From a virus (lineage: Duplodnaviria; Caudoviricetes): 64,000 nucleotides of DNA. Position numbers and translations under genes: made by a program. The notes beneath the pieces are model-generated. The model worked only from the letters and a program-made list of their open reading frames with translations. It made no database searches and had not been told where the DNA came from. The stretch lies in the IMG/VR virus record IMGVR_UViG_2871745582_000001, positions 1 through 64,000 of that record; one strand, given 5' to 3'. Below, one piece after another: positions 47,637 to 54,012 of this stretch (position 1 is its first letter; each line of letters opens with the position of its first letter).

Positions 47637-48686
47637 TTAGTTGTCTTCCAGTATGCGCACCATGGCGCTGCCTTCAGATTCCAGGTTACGGATATAGGCG
47701 ATCACCATCTCCACGCGAGACCAGCCGCCCGCCTGCATAATCTCCGTCACCGATACACCAGCGCGCGCCATATCAACCGCGGCGCCAACGCGCGCACTGT
47801 GGCCAGACCAAGCCTGATAGCGCAAATCGGTCTTTTTCTTCCTGCCGTGCAGGCGTGAGTGCGCCGATTCAAACAGGGCTTCAAGCGAGCGGGGCGTTAA
47901 TGGCTTCTCAGCAGACGGAACCGGCGCGCCATTTTTAAGGATGCGGCAGAACAGATAATTATCCGGATCTTCCATCACGCCGGACACCTGCATCCAGCTG
48001 TCCACCAGCCCGGTAATGTCACGGCTCAGAGTCTTGAGTGTGCCCGCCGTGCTGACCAGCGTTTTGGTACGGCCAACACGGATCTGAATGCGCCCTTCAT
48101 CCGTGCGGGTAATGTCTTTGGCACGAATGCGGGATATTTCACTGATACGTAGTAGCGTGTTATACGCCAGCCCCAGGAATGCCAGCTCCCTAATCTCGGC
48201 GATTTCTTCTGTGCCGGCCAGCCGCCCGCGCAGCTTATCCAGATCGCGGCGCTGGAATGGCAGCGCCTGACCAGCCTGCTCGCCAGAGTCCACGTTCTCG
48301 CGCCGGATGCGGCGCATAACCAGGCTGACCGCGTTAGAATCGCTGGGCCGCGCCAGCCCGGCGCGCTTGTGGATGATATTGAGCATCTGCAGGTGCATGG
48401 TAATGGTTTTCACCGCCCGCCCCGCCGCCTGCAGGTGAAGCAGGTAATCCCTCACATCTTCCGACTGCGCCGGGAACCAGACGCGGCCACCCTCCTGGCA
48501 CCAGGCGGACCACTGGCGCGCCACCTGCATCAGCATCTTCCAGGTGTGCTCAGAAAAGCCGGTTTTGTCCCGGAACAGTTCGAACAGGTTGCGGCGCACC
48601 TCATCGCTGGTGGCCTCGACTGGCAGTGCGGGAAGATTGATATGAACGGGCGACGAATCAATCAGCGCCATGCTGTTTTTGGTCAT
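47637..48686 (-). CDS. cre: Cre-family tyrosine recombinase
   Basis: FSEHTWKML, SDSNAVSLVMRRIR, YNTLLRISE, GRTKT, WSGHSARVGAA and YIRNL motifs. Confidence 0.95.
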   Translation of the reverse strand: MTKNSMALIDSSPVHINLPALPVEATSDEVRRNLFELFRDKTGFSEHTWKMLMQVARQWSAWCQEGGRVWFPAQSEDVRDYLLHLQAAGRAVKTITMHLQMLNIIHKRAGLARPSDSNAVSLVMRRIRRENVDSGEQAGQALPFQRRDLDKLRGRLAGTEEIAEIRELAFLGLAYNTLLRISEISRIRAKDITRTDEGRIQIRVGRTKTLVSTAGTLKTLSRDITGLVDSWMQVSGVMEDPDNYLFCRILKNGAPVPSAEKPLTPRSLEALFESAHSRLHGRKKKTDLRYQAWSGHSARVGAAVDMARAGVSVTEIMQAGGWSRVEMVIAYIRNLESEGSAMVRILEDN

Positions 48687-48902
48687 GATATTCCCTAAAT
48701 AATGCGCGTCAGCAGCGACCAGAGAAGCGGGAATGATTTTTCCCTTTCCCCGGCAGCGTTGAAATAGGCCCAGCGCCCACGCCACAGCCGTATTGTCCCG
48801 TCACGGCGGGTAAGATGCCAGCCCTCTTTGACAAAACCTTTGGCGCGCCAGATGCCGCGCATTTTTTCAAGTTCCTGATTCTGGGCTACGTTCAAAGCTT
48901 TT

Positions 48903-51174: not shown

Positions 51175-51208
51175 ATTCCTTCGTATAATTGGAGCTATAC
51201 GAAGTAAT
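51175..51208. other. lox-like recombination site
   Basis: ATTCCTTCGTATA-ATTGGAGC-TATACGAAGTAAT (13-8-13). Confidence 0.88.
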
Positions 51209-51324
51209 CCATGCCGGTGAGGATACAGACCCTCTTGCGTGCCGTCCATAATAATATGGAATTTTTTAGAGCAATGCATTATCGCCTTGCTGATTGCAAA
51301 ATGACCACATACGGAAATCGTGAA

Positions 51325-51353
51325 TTGACTGTAGCTCTAATCAAATATAATTT
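51325..51353 (+). promoter_or_regulatory. sigma70 promoter with an overlapping C1-like operator for the RNA cluster
   Basis: TTGACT...TATAAT/TAATTT with GTAGCTCTAATCAAAT in the spacer; second operator at 51259-51275. Confidence 0.6.
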
Positions 51354-51482
51354 ACGAACGGTCGGCAACGCAGGATGCGTTACTAAGCGCCAGGATGGCC
51401 GCCAGCAGTTCTGTAACATCAGGTGACCAGCCTACGGGCCTCCTTCACGTCTGCCAGTACGTGGATCAATACTGGCAACCCT

Positions 51483-51558
51483 GGCTCCTTAGCTCAGTTG
51501 GTAGAGCGGCACGTTGAAGGCGTGCGCGTCGCTGGTTCAATTCCAGCAGGAGCCACCA
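51483..51558 (+). tRNA. tRNA-Phe(GAA)
   Basis: Cloverleaf; anticodon arm GCACG-TTGAAGG-CGTGC; GTTCAA; CCA end. Confidence 0.88.
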
Positions 51559-51777
51559 TCATTAAGCGCACTATCAAACATCTTCGGCCTGGCGAAGTGG
51601 CGTAAAAGCTGGTGGTAGTGCGCTTAATGATGGGTGATTGCGGCCATGCGGCGCATTGAAGTAAAGGTTCCGCCCGGATCCTGACCTGATATGTCCCGCT
51701 GGCCACCAGCATCTATCCGGGTGACGCTTCCCGACAGACGTCCGCGCCCACTGCGCAGTGTGGGGAATACTGATTAT

Positions 51778-51852
51778 GGGTAGGTCGTATAAAGGCTATT
51801 ACGGTTGGCTGTTAACCAACTTATCCGGGTTCGAATCCCGGCCTTCCCGCCA
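51778..51852 (+). tRNA. tRNA-Asn(GTT)
   Basis: GTTGG-CTGTTAA-CCAAC; GTTCGAATC; CCA end; one acceptor-stem mismatch. Confidence 0.82.
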
Positions 51853-51961
51853 ACACAACAGGTAAGCAGCCTGACGAATGAACCGCCTGGCGGGGCGCTC
51901 GTGTTGTGAAACAGGCTGCTTTCCGTTGTGAAGATTTCCGCCTCTCCTACGGGGATCTGCT

Positions 51962-52034
51962 GGTGGCGTAGCATAACTAGTAATGCAGGACGTCATAAAC
52001 CCGCATATCGGTGCAAATCCGATCGCCACCACAC
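51962..52034 (+). pseudogene. Degenerate tRNA (CAT in loop, broken anticodon stem)
   Basis: Acceptor GGTGGCG/CGCCACC, D and T arms pair; anticodon stem does not. Confidence 0.6.
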
Positions 52035-52385
52035 AACACACAACGGTGAGAGCCCTGCATTGGTCATGACAGATGAGCCATTGGCAGCAATAGCAAAGAA
52101 GCTGCGCCTGGTTAGCCAGTGCTCTCAACCGTTGTGGTGATTAAAGCCCGGCAACCTTTCACGTTGCGCAGGGGAAACAGTCAGAGCGCGGACTGGAGGG
52201 AAACGGCGTTACTGCGGCATGAAAGGGTCGCCACTACAACACTAACCCGCAGGCTGGTTCAGTCTTCATAGACCATCAGTGCCTGCGCCGGATGGGGTAA
52301 CCGGCACACAATGGTGAGAGGGCTGAACAACAGGCGAGAACCGGCTAACCCGTAATGCCATCCGGTCGGGCAGCTCTCTCAACCA

Positions 52386-52529
52386 TTGTGGTGAATGCGC
52401 AGGCTGAAGCGCCATGTATGGGTGGTTCGACAATCGGCATTGCCATCCAGAGGCGACCTTTGCCGGATAGGTTGACGCCCCTGCGAGTATCTGGAAACGA
52501 ACGCCGGAGACCAGCACCGGCCACCACAA
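52386..52529 (+). ncRNA. tRNA-shaped RNA with large variable insert
   Basis: TTGTGGTG/CACCACAA closing stem, GCGCAGGCTGAAGCGC arm, GCCGGAGACCAGCACCGGC arm. Confidence 0.6.
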
Positions 52530-52604
52530 ACCAATTTGCACGGCCGGAGAGCTGGCCAGCGTGAAAGCGACTGCCGGGAATAAGCGCCGGCGTGCAAACA
52601 TTCT

Positions 52605-52680
52605 GGCCCTTTAGCTCAGCGGTTAGAGCAGGCGGCTCATAACCGCTTTGTCGCCGGTTCAAACCCGGCAAGGGCCACCA
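52605..52680 (+). tRNA. tRNA-Ile2(CAT), ileX-like
   Basis: GGCCCTTTAGCTCAG...CTCATAA...GGGCCACCA. Confidence 0.9.
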
Positions 52681-53116
52681 GCTTTTGCAGCCAGGCTGAC
52701 AACGTACTGTCGTAAACACTGCATTCCTCAATGAGTTGGCTAACTTGAGGCGGGGGCACTCCCTGTAATGTAGGTCCGACCTGCGGACGAGACGAGTGAT
52801 AGCCGTCCATCTGGTAAGTGGCTTAGTGCCTGCAACTGGATGGAATGGCAAGGGTGACGGGCGGAGAGAGTGCCGCACACAACGGAAAGAGCATTGATGA
52901 GTTGACGCCAGACCCAACGCTTAACGGCGTCAGGGATAGGATACAAATGAACAATGCTCTTCCCGTTGTGGTGACACAACAGATAGTTTTCATCAGGCAA
53001 TGCGGCTGTTTTTATCATCTAAAGATAAATGCAAACGATGATCTGATGTTGGCAGCGGCCTAAGAAACCAAACGCCACGGGGTATTCCAGTTCCCCGCCA
53101 CCGAATCTGGCGCACT

Positions 53117-53187
53117 GGCCCGGTGTGATTCCGAATGGGCACTTACTCAAACGTACCCTCGGCGGGTTCGATTCCCGACTAGGCCCG
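53117..53187 (+). pseudogene. Degenerate tRNA-like element
   Basis: T arm CGGGTTCGATTCCCG and partial acceptor stem; no clear anticodon arm. Confidence 0.4.
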
Positions 53188-53374
53188 GACGGCGACGGGG
53201 AGGGTCCATTTGAGTGGGTAACAACGGGCATATCGCCTTAGTAAATCCCGCATCGGTGCTGGGTTAATCGCCAGCCGTCCGCTCCACGAAACGGAGCACA
53301 CAACAGGCAAGAGCATTAACACCTGGCCGATGCATTCAATCAGAACGAGTGCATATTGGTTTAGTGCTCTTGCC

Positions 53375-53499
53375 GTTGTGGCGATTGCGCCTGCTGAGGC
53401 GACCCCGGAACGCGGCCGATCCCGAGGGGTGGAAGTGGCGAATATCGGGAAAAGAAGGCACTGCATTCCCTGCCGGAGATCAGCCCCGGCCGTCACAAC
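53375..53499 (+). ncRNA. Second tRNA-shaped RNA with variable insert
   Basis: GTTGTGGCG/CGTCACAAC stem, CGCCTGCTGAGGCG arm, GCCGGAGATCAGCCCCGGC arm. Confidence 0.6.
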
Positions 53500-53748
53500 T
53501 CAGGCCCGTAATTGTTATGCCAGTGATCCCTGCTGGTGGCCGTAAGTGGGGCATATGGCACATGTGGGCGCGGAGTCAGGCCGATAAACCTTTTTCGGCT
53601 ATATGGTTATCCGATTAAAGCAGAATGTGTAAGCCAGGGCTTTTCTGTTCTGCCTATTGAGCGCTTAGACAGCGCGGCGATTCGTCTTGACGGCTGGAAG
53701 AGACAGCAAACAACAGTTAAGCGCACTGCGCCAGGAAAGGCAGCGCGC

Positions 53749-54012
53749 TTAACTATTCTTTTTGGCGTTGTAAAAACCCAGGATGATTTGCGCCAGCTCA
53801 TCTTCATCTTCAGGCGTGTAGAGGTATGACACAGGAACGTTGAGAACCCGGGCAATTTTTCGCGCTGTGTCAAACGAAGGGCTATTGGTTCCGCTCTCGT
53901 AATAGGAAATGCGGGAGCGGGCAGTAGATTCATCGATCCCCACCAGCACCCCTAATTTTTCCTGAGTTAAATTGGCCCTGTGACGAGCCTCTCTGAGTCG
54001 GGCTGGAACCAT
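53749..54012 (-). CDS. XRE-family HTH regulator
   Basis: RLREAR...LTQEKLG...RISYYESG. Confidence 0.88.
   Translation of the reverse strand: MVPARLREARHRANLTQEKLGVLVGIDESTARSRISYYESGTNSPSFDTARKIARVLNVPVSYLYTPEDEDELAQIILGFYNAKKNS

What the first reader, a model, noticed from the sequence alone, without database searches (positions are those of the whole stretch)
52131..53499. Interlocking stems: the 3' arm of a processing hairpin doubles as the 5' strand of a tRNA-shaped shell
Seen: the (G/A)TTGTG ending hairpins 2, 3 and 5 can alternatively pair downstream with CACTACAAC (~52231), CACCACAA (52522) or CGTCACAAC (53491). Two shells (52386-52529 and 53375-53499) share a D-like arm (GCGCAGGCTGAAGCGC / CGCCTGCTGAGGCG) and a T-like arm (GCCGGAGAYCAGCMCCGGC), but hold unrelated ~70-90 nt inserts where an anticodon arm would be. 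A mini-version lies at 52536-52598. Inference: cleavage triggers refolding into tRNA-mimic scaffolds that display variable sequence, reminiscent of RNase P-matured P1 C4 and P4 CI RNAs.
Basis: partly seen in the sequence, partly recalled or inferred. Interest (0 to 1): 0.75.

Follow-up and report, generated by a model that had tools for sequence, protein, structure and literature searches.

The report
Phage tRNA-shaped RNA frames with lock hairpins
A P1-like phage-plasmid carries a non-coding array in which long hairpins interlock with tRNA-shaped RNA frames that hold unrelated inserts, and the same frame turns out to be widespread in phages, including phage P1 itself.

Summary
In a 2.4-kb non-coding stretch of a P1-like phage-plasmid, the last 6-9 bases of three long hairpins (52131, 52385, 53375) can instead pair with 52232-52240, 52522-52529 or 53491-53499, closing "shells". 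Two shells (52385-52530, 53375-53499) belong to a phage RNA scaffold that I modelled here: a 7-9-bp end helix, AAU, a 4-bp hairpin, a variable insert, and a 5-bp hairpin stacked on the end helix, with complementary loops. On 93 distinct phage copies, 96% of pair cells are paired and 16 of 18 pairs change on both sides. About 99 unrelated insert clusters were seen. Phage P1 carries the same modules in its ban-operon leader, under the annotated ORFs plp and upl. The scaffold is related to the prophage sRNA STnc100/PasD but scores below Rfam's threshold. It is not a C4/isrK member. The hairpin lock is selected only in a sub-lineage (28 of 52 against 98 of 1608 in controls). Cleavage-triggered refolding, RNase P maturation and the inserts' function remain inferred. 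No antisense target or transcript ends were found.

The parts
51259..51351 (+). C1-operator-like site (51259-51275, minus strand, 2 mismatches to P1 operator Obana) and a weak promoter-like TTGACT-15 nt-TATAAT (51325-51351) upstream of the array
   Evidence: 9 operator matches in the window against 0.11 expected. The operator sequence was taken from the annotated P1 locus. The promoter was read from the sequence. The consensus scan found no + strand promoter, so this is inferred.
51483..51558 (+). tRNA-Phe(GAA)
51556..51633 (+). Hairpin with 21-bp arms that starts in the CCA of tRNA-Phe. Its 3' arm runs into ATGATGG-GTG-ATT-GCGG.
   Evidence: I2, 95% complementary. Sequence.
51778..51852 (+). 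tRNA-Asn(GTT)
51854..51930 (+). Hairpin 1 (CACAAC...GTTGTG)
   Evidence: I10.
51962..52031 (+). tRNA-like RNA with acceptor, D and T arms and a CCA end, but no anticodon stem
   Evidence: Rfam tRNA 40.6 bits (gathering score 29), with the anticodon arm left unaligned. Not called by ARAGORN.
52039..52139 (+). Hairpin 2. Its last 9 nt (52131-52139) are strand X of shell D.
52131..52240 (+). Shell D: a 9-bp end helix enclosing a different interior, with a 5-bp hairpin abutting the 3' strand. Not a member of model R1.
   Evidence: fold, z -1.79. No R1 hit at E<=1.
52305..52393 (+). Hairpin 3. Its last 9 nt are strand X of shell 1.
52385..52530 (+). Shell 1: a scaffold member with a 91-nt insert (52414-52504). 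The tail reads A-A-CCA after the 7-bp core helix.
   Evidence: R1 86.2 bits, E 7e-21. Fold.
52536..52598 (+). Mini shell: an 8-bp end helix, a GGCC hairpin, a 15-nt insert, and GCCGG-GAAUAAGCG-CCGGC
   Evidence: z -2.67. Not scored by R1.
52605..52680 (+). tRNA with anticodon CAT. 83.5% identical to P1 trnI.
52877..52980 (+). Hairpin 4, followed by an 'empty shell': GUUGUG-GUGA-CACAAC (52965-52980)
   Evidence: (I1).
52980..53142 (+). Conserved element of unknown kind shared with P1 and many other phages
53297..53383 (+). Hairpin 5. Its last 9 nt are strand X of shell 2.
   Evidence: (I9).
53375..53499 (+). Shell 2: a scaffold member with a 68-nt insert (53404-53471). The insert is homologous to one in the viral contig L036.
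   Evidence: R1 66.4 bits. 87% identity over 124 nt to L036.
53708..53770 (.). Inverted repeat followed by a T-run: the probable two-way terminator that ends the array
   Evidence: I3. Read from the sequence.

Best explanation
Window 51.3-53.8 kb is a non-coding transcription unit of a P1-like phage-plasmid. It lies between its lox/Cre-like and C1-like regions. It strings together three tRNAs, one tRNA without an anticodon stem, long hairpins and several 'shells'.

The shells are members or near relatives of a widespread phage RNA scaffold with tRNA-like dimensions:
- an end helix with a 7-bp conserved core (up to 9 bp);
- a 3-nt linker, AAU;
- a 4-bp hairpin;
- a hypervariable insert where the anticodon arm would be;
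- a 5-bp hairpin that continues directly into the 3' strand of the end helix, giving a 12-bp stack;
- two hairpin loops that are complementary to each other (GCUGAU / AUCAGC).

Shown: the scaffold, its covariation, its spread, its relation to STnc100/PasD, and the selected sharing of strand X between hairpin and shell in this lineage.

Inferred mechanism: the array is made as one precursor. The hairpin is transcribed first and is the stronger fold, so it holds strand X and keeps the shell open. Then either the >=25-bp hairpin is cut by the host double-strand RNase (RNase III), or its basal 6-9 pairs are lost by strand exchange. X then pairs with the downstream strand. The closed tRNA-like end is trimmed and protected as tRNAs are (RNase P at the 5' end, exonucleases at the 3' end). 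The remaining hairpin caps the 3' end of the upstream RNA.

The mature frames are stable small RNAs that present their inserts as trans-acting regulators or decoys. This is a natural counterpart of the engineered tRNA scaffold.
For: Context:
- PacA/PacB are 76-82% identical to P1/SJ46.
- There are 9 C1-operator matches against 0.11 expected, one of them at 51259.

Scaffold:
- Model R1 scores 86.2 and 66.4 bits on the two shells, 75.3 and 40.8 on P1, and 34.5 and 31.3 on two chromosomal prophage copies.
- On 102 hits (93 distinct) drawn through the T-like arm alone, 96.0% of cells pair, against 27-37% when partners are slid. 16 of 18 pairs change on both sides, and 0 of 500 shuffles reach this.
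- The 5' strand found by complementarity is nearly always followed by AATGCGCAGGCTGATGCGC.
- Loop complementarity of 5 or more bases holds in 65% of 34 loop pairs, against 9% with shuffled loops. Three variant loop pairs stay complementary.

Lock:
- 56 of 93 units have X inside a long upstream hairpin, against 75 of 465 random positions.
- Folded without X, 52 of 93 units have a hairpin ending within 3 nt of X. In 28 of those 52 the helix runs 6 or more pairs into X, against 98 of 1608 with foreign X. This holds for 8 of 24 distinct X sequences.
- The hairpins are more stable on the sense strand in 49 of 56 cases, with 225 against 115 G-U pairs.

Energetics: the two registers differ by 4-7 kcal/mol.

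tRNA likeness of the ends:
- CCA lies 1-2 nt after the 7-bp helix in 25 of 111 units, against 1-7% at later offsets.
- A same-strand tRNA lies within 300 nt in 20 of 221 units, against 54 of 2210 random positions.
- In L036 the same cargo as shell 2 sits 5 nt before a tRNA, behind a terminator and a promoter-like site whose start would fall at X.

Relatives are real RNAs:
- STnc100 was verified by Northern blot and has 11 copies in EDL933 (PMC5331693, passages).
- PasD is Hfq-dependent with RIL-seq targets (PMC8550237, passages).
Against: - No transcript ends, cleavage sites or expression were shown for this array. The one raw-read RNA run laid gave 0 reads. The other three runs are contigs in RNA-labelled libraries and cannot show transcription.
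- The consensus scan finds no + strand promoter.
- The shells are not tRNAs by Rfam or ARAGORN. Their T-like loop lacks the T-loop consensus.
- Only a fifth of units carry CCA, and shell 2 has none.
- About two thirds of scaffold copies lack the lock, so it is not needed for the scaffold.
- The loop-loop pairing shows no aligned double change.
- No antisense target above chance was found. The best match is 30.2 bits, against a shuffled mean of about 29.5 and a maximum of 32-36.
- Inserts share no motif and are only weakly structured (mean z -0.82).
- Single-sequence fold z-scores are weak.
Confidence: 0.55

Rival explanations
1. Punctuation only. The tRNA-shaped frames and hairpins serve as processing and stability signals that cut polycistronic phage transcripts into separately stable pieces, as tRNAs punctuate mitochondrial transcripts. 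The inserts are tolerated filler without a function of their own.
For: - Frames sit at inter-gene 'moron' positions in varied contexts: after repressor-like genes, after Q-like genes, before holin-like genes (family names are my reading of the sequences).
- Inserts share no motif and range from 15 to 162 nt.
- No target was found.
- An 'empty' frame exists at 52965-52980.
Against: - The window's array has no coding genes to punctuate.
- Some inserts are conserved between unrelated contexts: shell 2 and L036 share 87% over 124 nt while the flanks are unrelated.
- Relatives STnc100 and PasD accumulate as sRNAs with targets.
Confidence: 0.17
2. A DNA-level feature. The conserved frame ends and the X'-X-X' repeats are recombination linkers or remnants of a small mobile palindromic element that shuffles cassettes between phages. 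On this reading the RNA folds are by-products.
For: - The frame ends are highly conserved at the nucleotide level around unrelated inserts.
- L026 looks like L025 with the stretch between two hairpins deleted.
- The same cargo occurs in unrelated contexts.
- Presence is sporadic: 4 of 151 genomes of the order.
Against: - Pairs are kept through changes on both sides with many different X sequences.
- G-U asymmetry favours the transcribed strand: 49 of 56 hairpins.
- Relatives are expressed RNAs.
- No recombinase or transposase is consistently adjacent.
- Both readings can hold together: RNA function plus easy cassette exchange.
Confidence: 0.12
3. An immunity antisense RNA of the P1 C4 / P4 CI kind: an RNase P-matured RNA whose displayed loops pair with a leader in the same operon to control an antirepressor.
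For: - It sits in a P1-like element.
- It has a tRNA-like end helix.
- It is preceded by a C1-type operator, as P1 immI is (recalled).
- There is a general likeness of concept.
Against: - No C4-family match in the window at E<=10 or in the whole genome at E<=1. P1's own C4 scores 68.8 bits.
- R1 finds nothing in the C4 locus with filters off.
- No complementarity above chance anywhere in the genome, including contig C10.
- In P1 the homologous modules lie in the ban-operon leader, not in immI.
Confidence: 0.04

Closest known systems
STnc100 (Rfam RF02076) and PasD, Hfq-dependent sRNAs of lambdoid and Stx prophages
   Same: - The core architecture at model positions 31-147 is the same: an end helix (caUGGUG/CACCAug), an AAU linker, a short 5' hairpin, a variable middle, and a 5-bp hairpin (CCGGG-AGGCA-CCCGG) running straight into the 3' strand.
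- P1's second shell hits this core at 33.4 bits, and a chromosomal copy in the window's genome at 29.9 bits.
- R1 cross-hits those copies.
- In the own-genome copies the core is also preceded by a CACAAC...GTTGTG hairpin.
   Different: - The window's shells give no STnc100 hit at all.
- They have different loop sequences (AGGCUGAU / AGAUCAGCA).
- There is no terminator right behind them.
- They are array-embedded, not stand-alone genes.
- The papers I read do not describe a tRNA-like shape or a lock hairpin.
P1 C4 and P4 CI antisense RNAs (RNase P-matured; Rfam C4 RF01695)
   Same: They are phage RNAs cut out of a longer transcript and thought to use a tRNA-like end for RNase P (recalled). They display loops that carry specificity.
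   Different: There is no sequence or structure-model match in either direction. They occupy a different locus in P1 (immI against the ban leader). No target was found.
tRNA, and the engineered tRNA scaffold for expressing recombinant RNA (recalled: Ponchon and Dardel)
   Same: - A 7-bp end helix plus a 5-bp hairpin forms a 12-bp stack.
- A 4-bp hairpin follows a short linker.
- The two loops can touch.
- The cargo sits where the anticodon arm would be.
- CCA follows in a fifth of copies.
- The units are neighbours of true tRNAs in this array.
   Different: - Not recognised by tRNA models.
- Loops pair by Watson-Crick complementarity and do not follow the T-loop/D-loop consensus.
- The linker is 3 nt.
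- The T-like loop is 9 nt.
Stable RNAs of unknown function in the phage T4 tRNA cluster (species 1 and 2; recalled), and DicF processing from the dicB operon (recalled)
   Same: They are small non-coding RNAs co-transcribed with phage tRNAs or genes and released by host RNases. P1's annotation places a 'dicF-like region' in the same leader.
   Different: No sequence comparison was made for the T4 RNAs. Rfam DicF does not score P1's 'dicF-like' stretch at E<=1.

Membership tests
Phage tRNA-shaped scaffold defined here (model R1, 'type A') | Full-length covariance-model match with end helix, AAU, 4-bp hairpin, insert, and a 5-bp hairpin abutting the 3' strand | tested here: met
   52385-52530 scores 86.2 bits and 53375-53499 scores 66.4 bits, both over model positions 1-120. 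Both were in the seed alignment A1, so they match by construction. Independent support: 102 further hits with covariation.
Phage tRNA-shaped scaffold defined here (model R1, 'type A') | Complementary hairpin loops (GCUGAU / AUCAGC) | tested here: met
   Shell 1 has GCUG/CAGC (4 bp). Shell 2 has GCUGA/UCAGC (5 bp), read. Across the family, 95.4% of cells pair, without aligned double changes. Three variant loop pairs stay complementary.
STnc100 (RF02076) | Rfam gathering score of 47 bits | tested here: not met
   No hit on the window's shells at E<=10. P1 shell 2 scores 33.4 bits and own-genome copy L025 scores 29.9 bits, core only. A true STnc100 in the same genome scores 79.5 bits.
STnc100 (RF02076) | Own 3' terminator hairpin with a U-run (model positions about 160-206) and Hfq dependence | tested here: not met
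   No terminator-like site follows either shell. Hfq binding is not testable here.
C4 antisense RNA family (RF01695; c4-2, isrK likewise) | Covariance-model match | tested here: not met
   None in window 51200-53900 at E<=10 against all Rfam families. None for C4 in the genome at E<=1. The control, P1 C4, scores 68.8 bits.
C4 antisense RNA family (RF01695; c4-2, isrK likewise) | Loops complementary to a target in its own operon | tested here: not met
   The best matches of the inserts anywhere in the genome are 30.2 bits. Shuffled inserts give a mean of about 29.5 and a maximum of 32-36. Short seeds would escape this test.
tRNA (RF00005) | tRNA model or ARAGORN call; T-loop and D-loop consensus | tested here: not met
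   The shells are not called. The T-like loop AGAYCAGCM is 9 nt and lacks the T-loop consensus (read; the consensus itself is recalled).
tRNA (RF00005) | 7-bp acceptor stacked on a 5-bp T stem; 4-bp D stem | tested here: met
   End-helix columns 3-9 pair in at least 98% of cells, while the outer two pair in 65-76%. The 5-bp stem abuts the 3' strand. The 4-bp stem pairs in 98% of cells.
RNase P / RNase III substrates | Cleavage at the shell's 5' boundary (RNase P) or within the >=20-bp hairpin (RNase III) | not testable with these tools
   Hairpin stems of about 25-33 bp are predicted. No raw-read RNA data cover the array.

The most novel reading that the evidence does not exclude
Temperate phages, classical P1 included, carry a large, so far undescribed class of 'tRNA-frame' RNAs. 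This is a natural tRNA scaffold, closed by loop-loop pairing, that is matured and protected by the host's tRNA enzymes. It serves as an exchangeable holder for about a hundred or more unrelated RNA cargos used in phage-host or phage-phage conflict. In one lineage a register-switch (X'-X-X') with a long hairpin gates its folding. STnc100 and PasD would be one terminator-bearing branch of this class.
Probability: 0.4. Interest if true: 0.8.

Novelty: new variant of a known kind. Interest (0 to 1): 0.62.

Why it matters
If the reading holds, it matters in five ways:
- A stretch of phage P1 that has been annotated for two decades as two hypothetical minus-strand ORFs (plp, upl) is in fact a set of structured RNAs.
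- The orphan prophage sRNAs STnc100/PasD gain a structural rationale (a tRNA-like frame) and hundreds of relatives with other cargos.
- 1173 of 5426 complete E. coli genomes hold sequence like one hairpin-plus-frame unit. All 30 sampled rows are unannotated there.
- A natural RNA display frame with a built-in folding lock would be a testable model for processing-coupled refolding. It could also be a ready-made chassis for expressing RNAs in bacteria.
- The hypervariable inserts point to an arms-race function worth screening against defence systems.

Tried and rejected
Tried, with no result or a negative one:
- **Near-identity searches.** Megablast of the region against phages and plasmids found only tRNA pieces and the 52980-53142 element. 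Sixty relatives' genomes match only the tRNA.
- **Rfam.** At E<=10 there is nothing for the shells except an 18-nt local likeness of the T-like hairpin to rydB. The genome's true rydB matches R1 only in that hairpin (11.7 bits), so rydB was not filed as a member.
- **Antisense targets.** A search with the four inserts found nothing above shuffled controls.
- **Promoters.** A promoter placed to start transcription at X was found in 0 of 56 hairpin units and 0 of 37 other units at two thresholds. The L036 case is a single weaker consensus match that I read by eye.
- **First controls for the lock.** Two were uninformative. Counting any pairing of X upstream gave 32 of 49 against 103 of 245. The best 9-mer complement with G-U allowed, at 8 or more, gave 25 of 49 against 877 of 1930. 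A strict in-register test failed because of a conserved 1-nt offset at the junction. The slip-tolerant test is the one I rely on.
- **Genome-contig scan.** The scan with the T-arm 17-mer gave mostly chance matches in G+C-rich genomes. Only 1 of the 80 loci returned is a scaffold by R1, so it says little about host range.
- **RNA evidence.** The look-up of sequencing runs gave 2 holders of unknown kind and small-share metagenome libraries. In read laying, the raw-read run X15 gave 0 reads. X4 and X8 (RNA libraries, contigs) hold pieces identical to 52512-52662, 52744-52894 and 52999-53162. X1 (RNA-labelled, probably DNA) holds frame ends joined over other inserts. None of this shows transcription or ends.
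- **Neighbouring ORFs.** They are diverse, with no constant partner protein.
- **tblastn of P1 Plp and Upl against the window.** Plp gave nothing better than E 0.46. Upl gave one weak hit (E 9e-6) where the DNA itself is 86% identical. This is inconclusive.
- **Literature.** Searches for a description of the scaffold or of the P1 leader RNAs found none. The P1 genome paper is not held. Supplements were not consulted and may hold PasD/STnc100 alignments.
Full report
**Where the finding lies.** The window is the first 64 kb of a 94,409-bp contig. The contig encodes P1-type PacA and PacB, 76-82% identical in protein to P1, P7 and SJ46. It also encodes a ParM-type partition protein and a tyrosine recombinase. 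It carries nine matches to the P1 C1 operator, against 0.11 expected. The operator sequence was taken from the annotated P1 record. This is therefore a P1-like phage-plasmid.

Between 51.2 and 53.8 kb no convincing ORF exists. The stretch holds tRNA-Phe, tRNA-Asn and a tRNA with anticodon CAT. It also holds a fourth tRNA-model match (51962-52031, 40.6 bits) whose anticodon arm does not align and which ARAGORN does not call. One operator match lies at 51259-51275. An inverted repeat with a T-run lies at 53708-53770.

**The observation.**
- Hairpins 2, 3 and 5 end in GTTGTGGTG (52131), ATTGTGGTG (52385) and GTTGTGGCG (53375).
- These strands ("X") are complementary both to the CACAAC-type 5' base of their own hairpin and to CACTACAAC (52232), CACCACAA (52522) and CGTCACAAC (53491).
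- The X motif is clustered: 5 of its 9 matches in the window fall in 1.4 kb, and 4.6 matches are expected in the whole window.
- The shared T-like arm occurs twice, against 0.00 expected.
- In the precursors the minimum-energy fold keeps X in the hairpin. The register with the shell closed costs only 4-7 kcal/mol more by nearest-neighbour energies. Each shell folded alone closes through X.
- After hairpin 4 the same words form an 'empty' shell, GUUGUG-GUGA-CACAAC.
- Single-sequence z-scores of the shells are weak (-1.1 to -1.8), so thermodynamics alone would not carry the claim.

**Phage P1 has the same modules.** A distant blastn led to the P1 ban operon. Downstream of the C1-controlled Pban and the annotated 'dicF-like region', P1 holds four CACAAC...GTTG hairpins. 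It also holds two shells (locus L023 2384-2485 and 2645-2768).
- P1's first shell has GCAC-AGGCUGAU-GUGC and GUCGG-AGUUCAGCA-CCGAC where the window has GCGC...GCGC and GCCGG...CCGGC.
- P1's second shell closes with GUUGCGGUG/CACCGCAAC.
- These are compensating changes in three helices.
- The modules lie under the minus-strand ORFs plp and upl of the P1 annotation.

**Relation to a curated family.** Rfam finds nothing for the window's shells, even at E<=10. It does match P1's second shell to the core of STnc100 (positions 31-147 of 206) at 33.4 bits, under the gathering score of 47. That core has the same architecture.

The window's own genome has one full STnc100 (79.5 bits) and two core-only copies in chromosomal prophages. 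Each core-only copy is preceded by a CACAAC...GTTGTG hairpin.
- STnc100 is a multi-copy prophage sRNA verified by Northern blot (PMC5331693, passages).
- One copy lies 75 nt downstream of stx2 (PMC12370729, passages).
- A 2026 preprint links STnc100 to PasD by structure (10.64898/2026.05.13.724894; abstract, sections 3 and 12, and passages).
- PasD is Hfq-dependent with RIL-seq partners (PMC8550237, passages).
- None of the text I read describes a tRNA-like shape, a lock hairpin or the P1 copies.

**A widespread scaffold.** I made two exact-word scans of IMG/VR. One used the junction of X and the D-like arm. The other used the T-like arm alone.

With the first set, 86 of 123 matches had a closing word 60-190 nt downstream, and these 86 fell into 35 groups. 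I aligned 27 of these groups (the type A ones) plus the two window shells and P1 shell 1 (A1). From this alignment I built model R1.

The second set leaves both strands of the end helix and the D-like arm free:
- 116 matches were found.
- The best-complementary upstream 9-mer is nearly always followed by AATGCGCAGGCTGATGCGC.
- The end helix takes dozens of forms, for example AGTGGTCTG/CAGACCACT, GTGTTGGTG/CACCAACAC, GATTGGATG/CATCCAATC and TTGATAGTT/AACTATCAA.

R1 finds 102 hits in those 95 loci. On that alignment (93 distinct rows):
- 96.0% of cells pair, against 27-37% when partners are slid.
- 16 of 18 pairs change on both sides, in 254 cells.
- No shuffle of 500 reaches any measure.
- Caveats: the alignment is fitted to the model, the T-like stem was fixed by the search word, and the rows are related.

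The outer two pairs of the end helix are kept in only 65-76% of cells, the inner seven in 98% or more. The conserved frame is therefore a 7-bp helix continued by a 5-bp hairpin, with a 4-bp hairpin after a 3-nt linker. These are tRNA dimensions.

The two loops are complementary (GCUGAU/AUCAGC):
- 95.4% of cells pair, but without aligned double changes.
- Three variant loop pairs remain complementary: GCGAU/AUCGC, GGUGAU/AUCACC and UGGUG/CACCA.

**Inserts.** Among the model hits there are 120 distinct inserts of 15-162 nt (median 74). They fall into about 99 clusters at roughly 70% similarity. They share no word and have only modest predicted structure (mean z -0.82; 14 of 99 below -2).

Some cargos are conserved across contexts. 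Shell 2 and viral contig L036 are 87% identical over 124 nt, while their flanks are unrelated. In L036 the frame follows a terminator and a promoter-like site and ends 5 nt before a tRNA.

The window's inserts have no complement in the genome above shuffled controls. Short seeds would escape that test.

**Is the interlock selected?**
- In the T-arm-anchored set, 56 of 93 distinct units have at least 5 bases of X inside a long upstream hairpin in the minimum-energy fold, against 75 of 465 random positions of the same loci.
- Folded without X, 52 of 93 units have a hairpin ending within 3 nt of X.
- In 28 of those 52 the helix continues for 6 or more pairs into X, against 98 of 1608 when X is exchanged for a different X.
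- This holds for 8 of 24 distinct X sequences: GTTGTGGTG, ATTGTGGTG, GTTGTGATG, GTGTTGGTG, TTGTTGGTG, TGTGTGGTG, ATGATGGTG and TTGATAGTT.
- In these cases the upstream strand, X and the downstream strand change together (examples).
- The hairpins fold better on the frame's strand than on the opposite strand in 49 of 56 cases, with 225 against 115 G-U pairs. This argues for selection on RNA, not on a DNA palindrome.
- Frames with other X sequences (for instance AGTGGTCTG and ACGGAGAGG) lack the lock.

The lock is therefore a lineage-specific accessory, not part of the scaffold's definition.

**tRNA-like ends and neighbours.**
- CCA lies 1-2 nt after the 7-bp helix in 25 of 111 units, against 1-7% at later offsets.
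- Shell 1 reads CACCACA-AA-CCA. Shell 2 has no CCA.
- A same-strand tRNA lies within 300 nt of 20 of 221 frame sites, against 54 of 2210 random positions.
- Most frames are therefore not in tRNA arrays.
- Neighbouring ORFs are diverse (repressor-like, Q-like and holin-like by my reading of the sequences), with no constant partner.

**Spread.**
- R1 hits 4 of 151 genomes sampled from the window's order, the window's own genome included.
- One hairpin-plus-frame unit (L064) finds matches in 1173 of 5426 complete E. coli genomes. All 30 sampled rows have no annotated feature under the match.
- A scan of one genome per species with the 17-mer gave mainly chance matches. Only 1 of the 80 loci returned is a frame (Stutzerimonas stutzeri KOS6).

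**What it is not.**
- The shells are not C4/isrK-type RNAs by model in either direction.
- They are not tRNAs by model.
- They are not STnc100 by Rfam's threshold.

**Mechanism.**
- Shown: the folds, their conservation and their mutual exclusion.
- Inferred: the array is one transcript from a C1-controlled promoter, by analogy with P1 Pban. The scan found no consensus + strand promoter.
- Inferred: the hairpin, being made first and being stronger, holds X.
- Inferred: RNase III (stems of about 25-33 bp) or strand exchange frees X.
- Inferred: the closed frame is then handled like a tRNA and accumulates, presenting its insert.
- No RNA data bear on this. One raw-read run gave 0 reads. Contigs from RNA-labelled libraries hold identical pieces of the array, and frame ends joined over other inserts, but they cannot show transcription.

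My estimates are:
- the frame is a real structured RNA family: about 0.95;
- the lock is selected in this lineage: about 0.8;
- maturation by tRNA enzymes: about 0.45;
- RNase III acts first: about 0.35;
- the inserts act by base pairing or as decoys: about 0.4.

**Novelty.** Known: the STnc100/PasD sRNAs and the concept of RNase P-matured phage RNAs. I did not find the following in six literature searches or in Rfam 15:
- the definition of the wider tRNA-dimensioned frame;
- its loop-loop closure;
- its hundred-odd cargos;
- its presence in P1 under plp/upl;
- the co-varying three-strand lock.

The P1 genome paper and all supplements were not available to me.

Noticed in passing
window 51176-51209; integrase-like ORF 47637-48785 (-): A lox-like site: 13-bp inverted arms (ATTCCTTCGTATA / TATACGAAGTAAT) around an 8-bp spacer, 2.4 kb from a 382-aa tyrosine recombinase (Pfam Phage_integrase). 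The likeness to loxP is recalled, not tested.
   Followed up: no
window 52980-53142; L023 1501-1565: A conserved non-coding element, 91% identical to P1 over 66 nt. It is 75-85% identical to unannotated stretches of HK620, HK633, Aeromonas phage pAh6-C and many Klebsiella and Salmonella phages. Only sub-threshold tmRNA-type Rfam hits overlap it in both the window and P1. Its kind is unknown.
   Followed up: partly
window 51962-52031: A tRNA-model match (40.6 bits) with normal acceptor, D and T arms and a CCA end, but 20 nt that cannot form an anticodon stem. ARAGORN does not call it. It may be an intermediate between the tRNAs and the frames of this array.
   Followed up: partly
L023 2039-2608 (P1 record 69472-70041): P1's annotated minus-strand ORFs plp and upl lie exactly over hairpins and frames on the plus strand. 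plp even overlaps the 3' part of trnT. Plp has no counterpart in the window. Upl has one weak hit where the DNA itself is similar. These ORFs may not be genes.
   Followed up: partly
window 52965-52980: An 'empty' frame directly after hairpin 4: GUUGUG closed on CACAAC by a GUGA loop (-7.9 kcal/mol, z -2.15). The terminator scan also picked it up because of the following T-rich run.
   Followed up: partly
window 53472-53489 and 52577-52595; L254 1501-1561 (-): The T-like hairpin resembles the central hairpin of the orphan sRNA rydB (GCCGGAGAUAAGCGCCGG). The mini shell and viral locus L142 carry the same AUAAGCG loop type. rydB as a whole does not match the scaffold model (11.7 bits, local only).
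   Followed up: partly
window 51556-51715: The hairpin right after tRNA-Phe starts inside its CCA. Its 3' arm ends in ATGATGG-GTG-ATT-GCGG, like an X strand plus linker plus hairpin start. An imperfect partner, CCACCAGCAT, lies at 51703-51712 (I13). It may be a degenerate frame. R1 does not score it.
   Followed up: no
G000:C2:32970-33119; C56:331980-332176; C64:272091-272218; C56:142904-143031: The host genome holds a further type A frame (71.6 bits, end helix GATTGGATG/CATCCAATC). It also holds one full STnc100 and two STnc100-core copies in chromosomal prophages. L026 looks like L025 with the stretch between two hairpins deleted.
   Followed up: partly
window 52407-52503 (run X1): In a wastewater library labelled RNA-Seq (flagged as probably DNA), 11 contigs join the frame's 5' part at 52412 to its 3' part at 52503 over other inserts. 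The summed depth is about 1092, far above the neighbouring tRNA bins. This shows many further cargos in the environment. It does not show expression.
   Followed up: no
window 53749-54012 (-): A small ORF ends at the array's terminator and reads like a helix-turn-helix regulator (my reading of the translated sequence). The overlapping 108-aa ORF 53607-53933 had no PHROG or Pfam hit.
   Followed up: no
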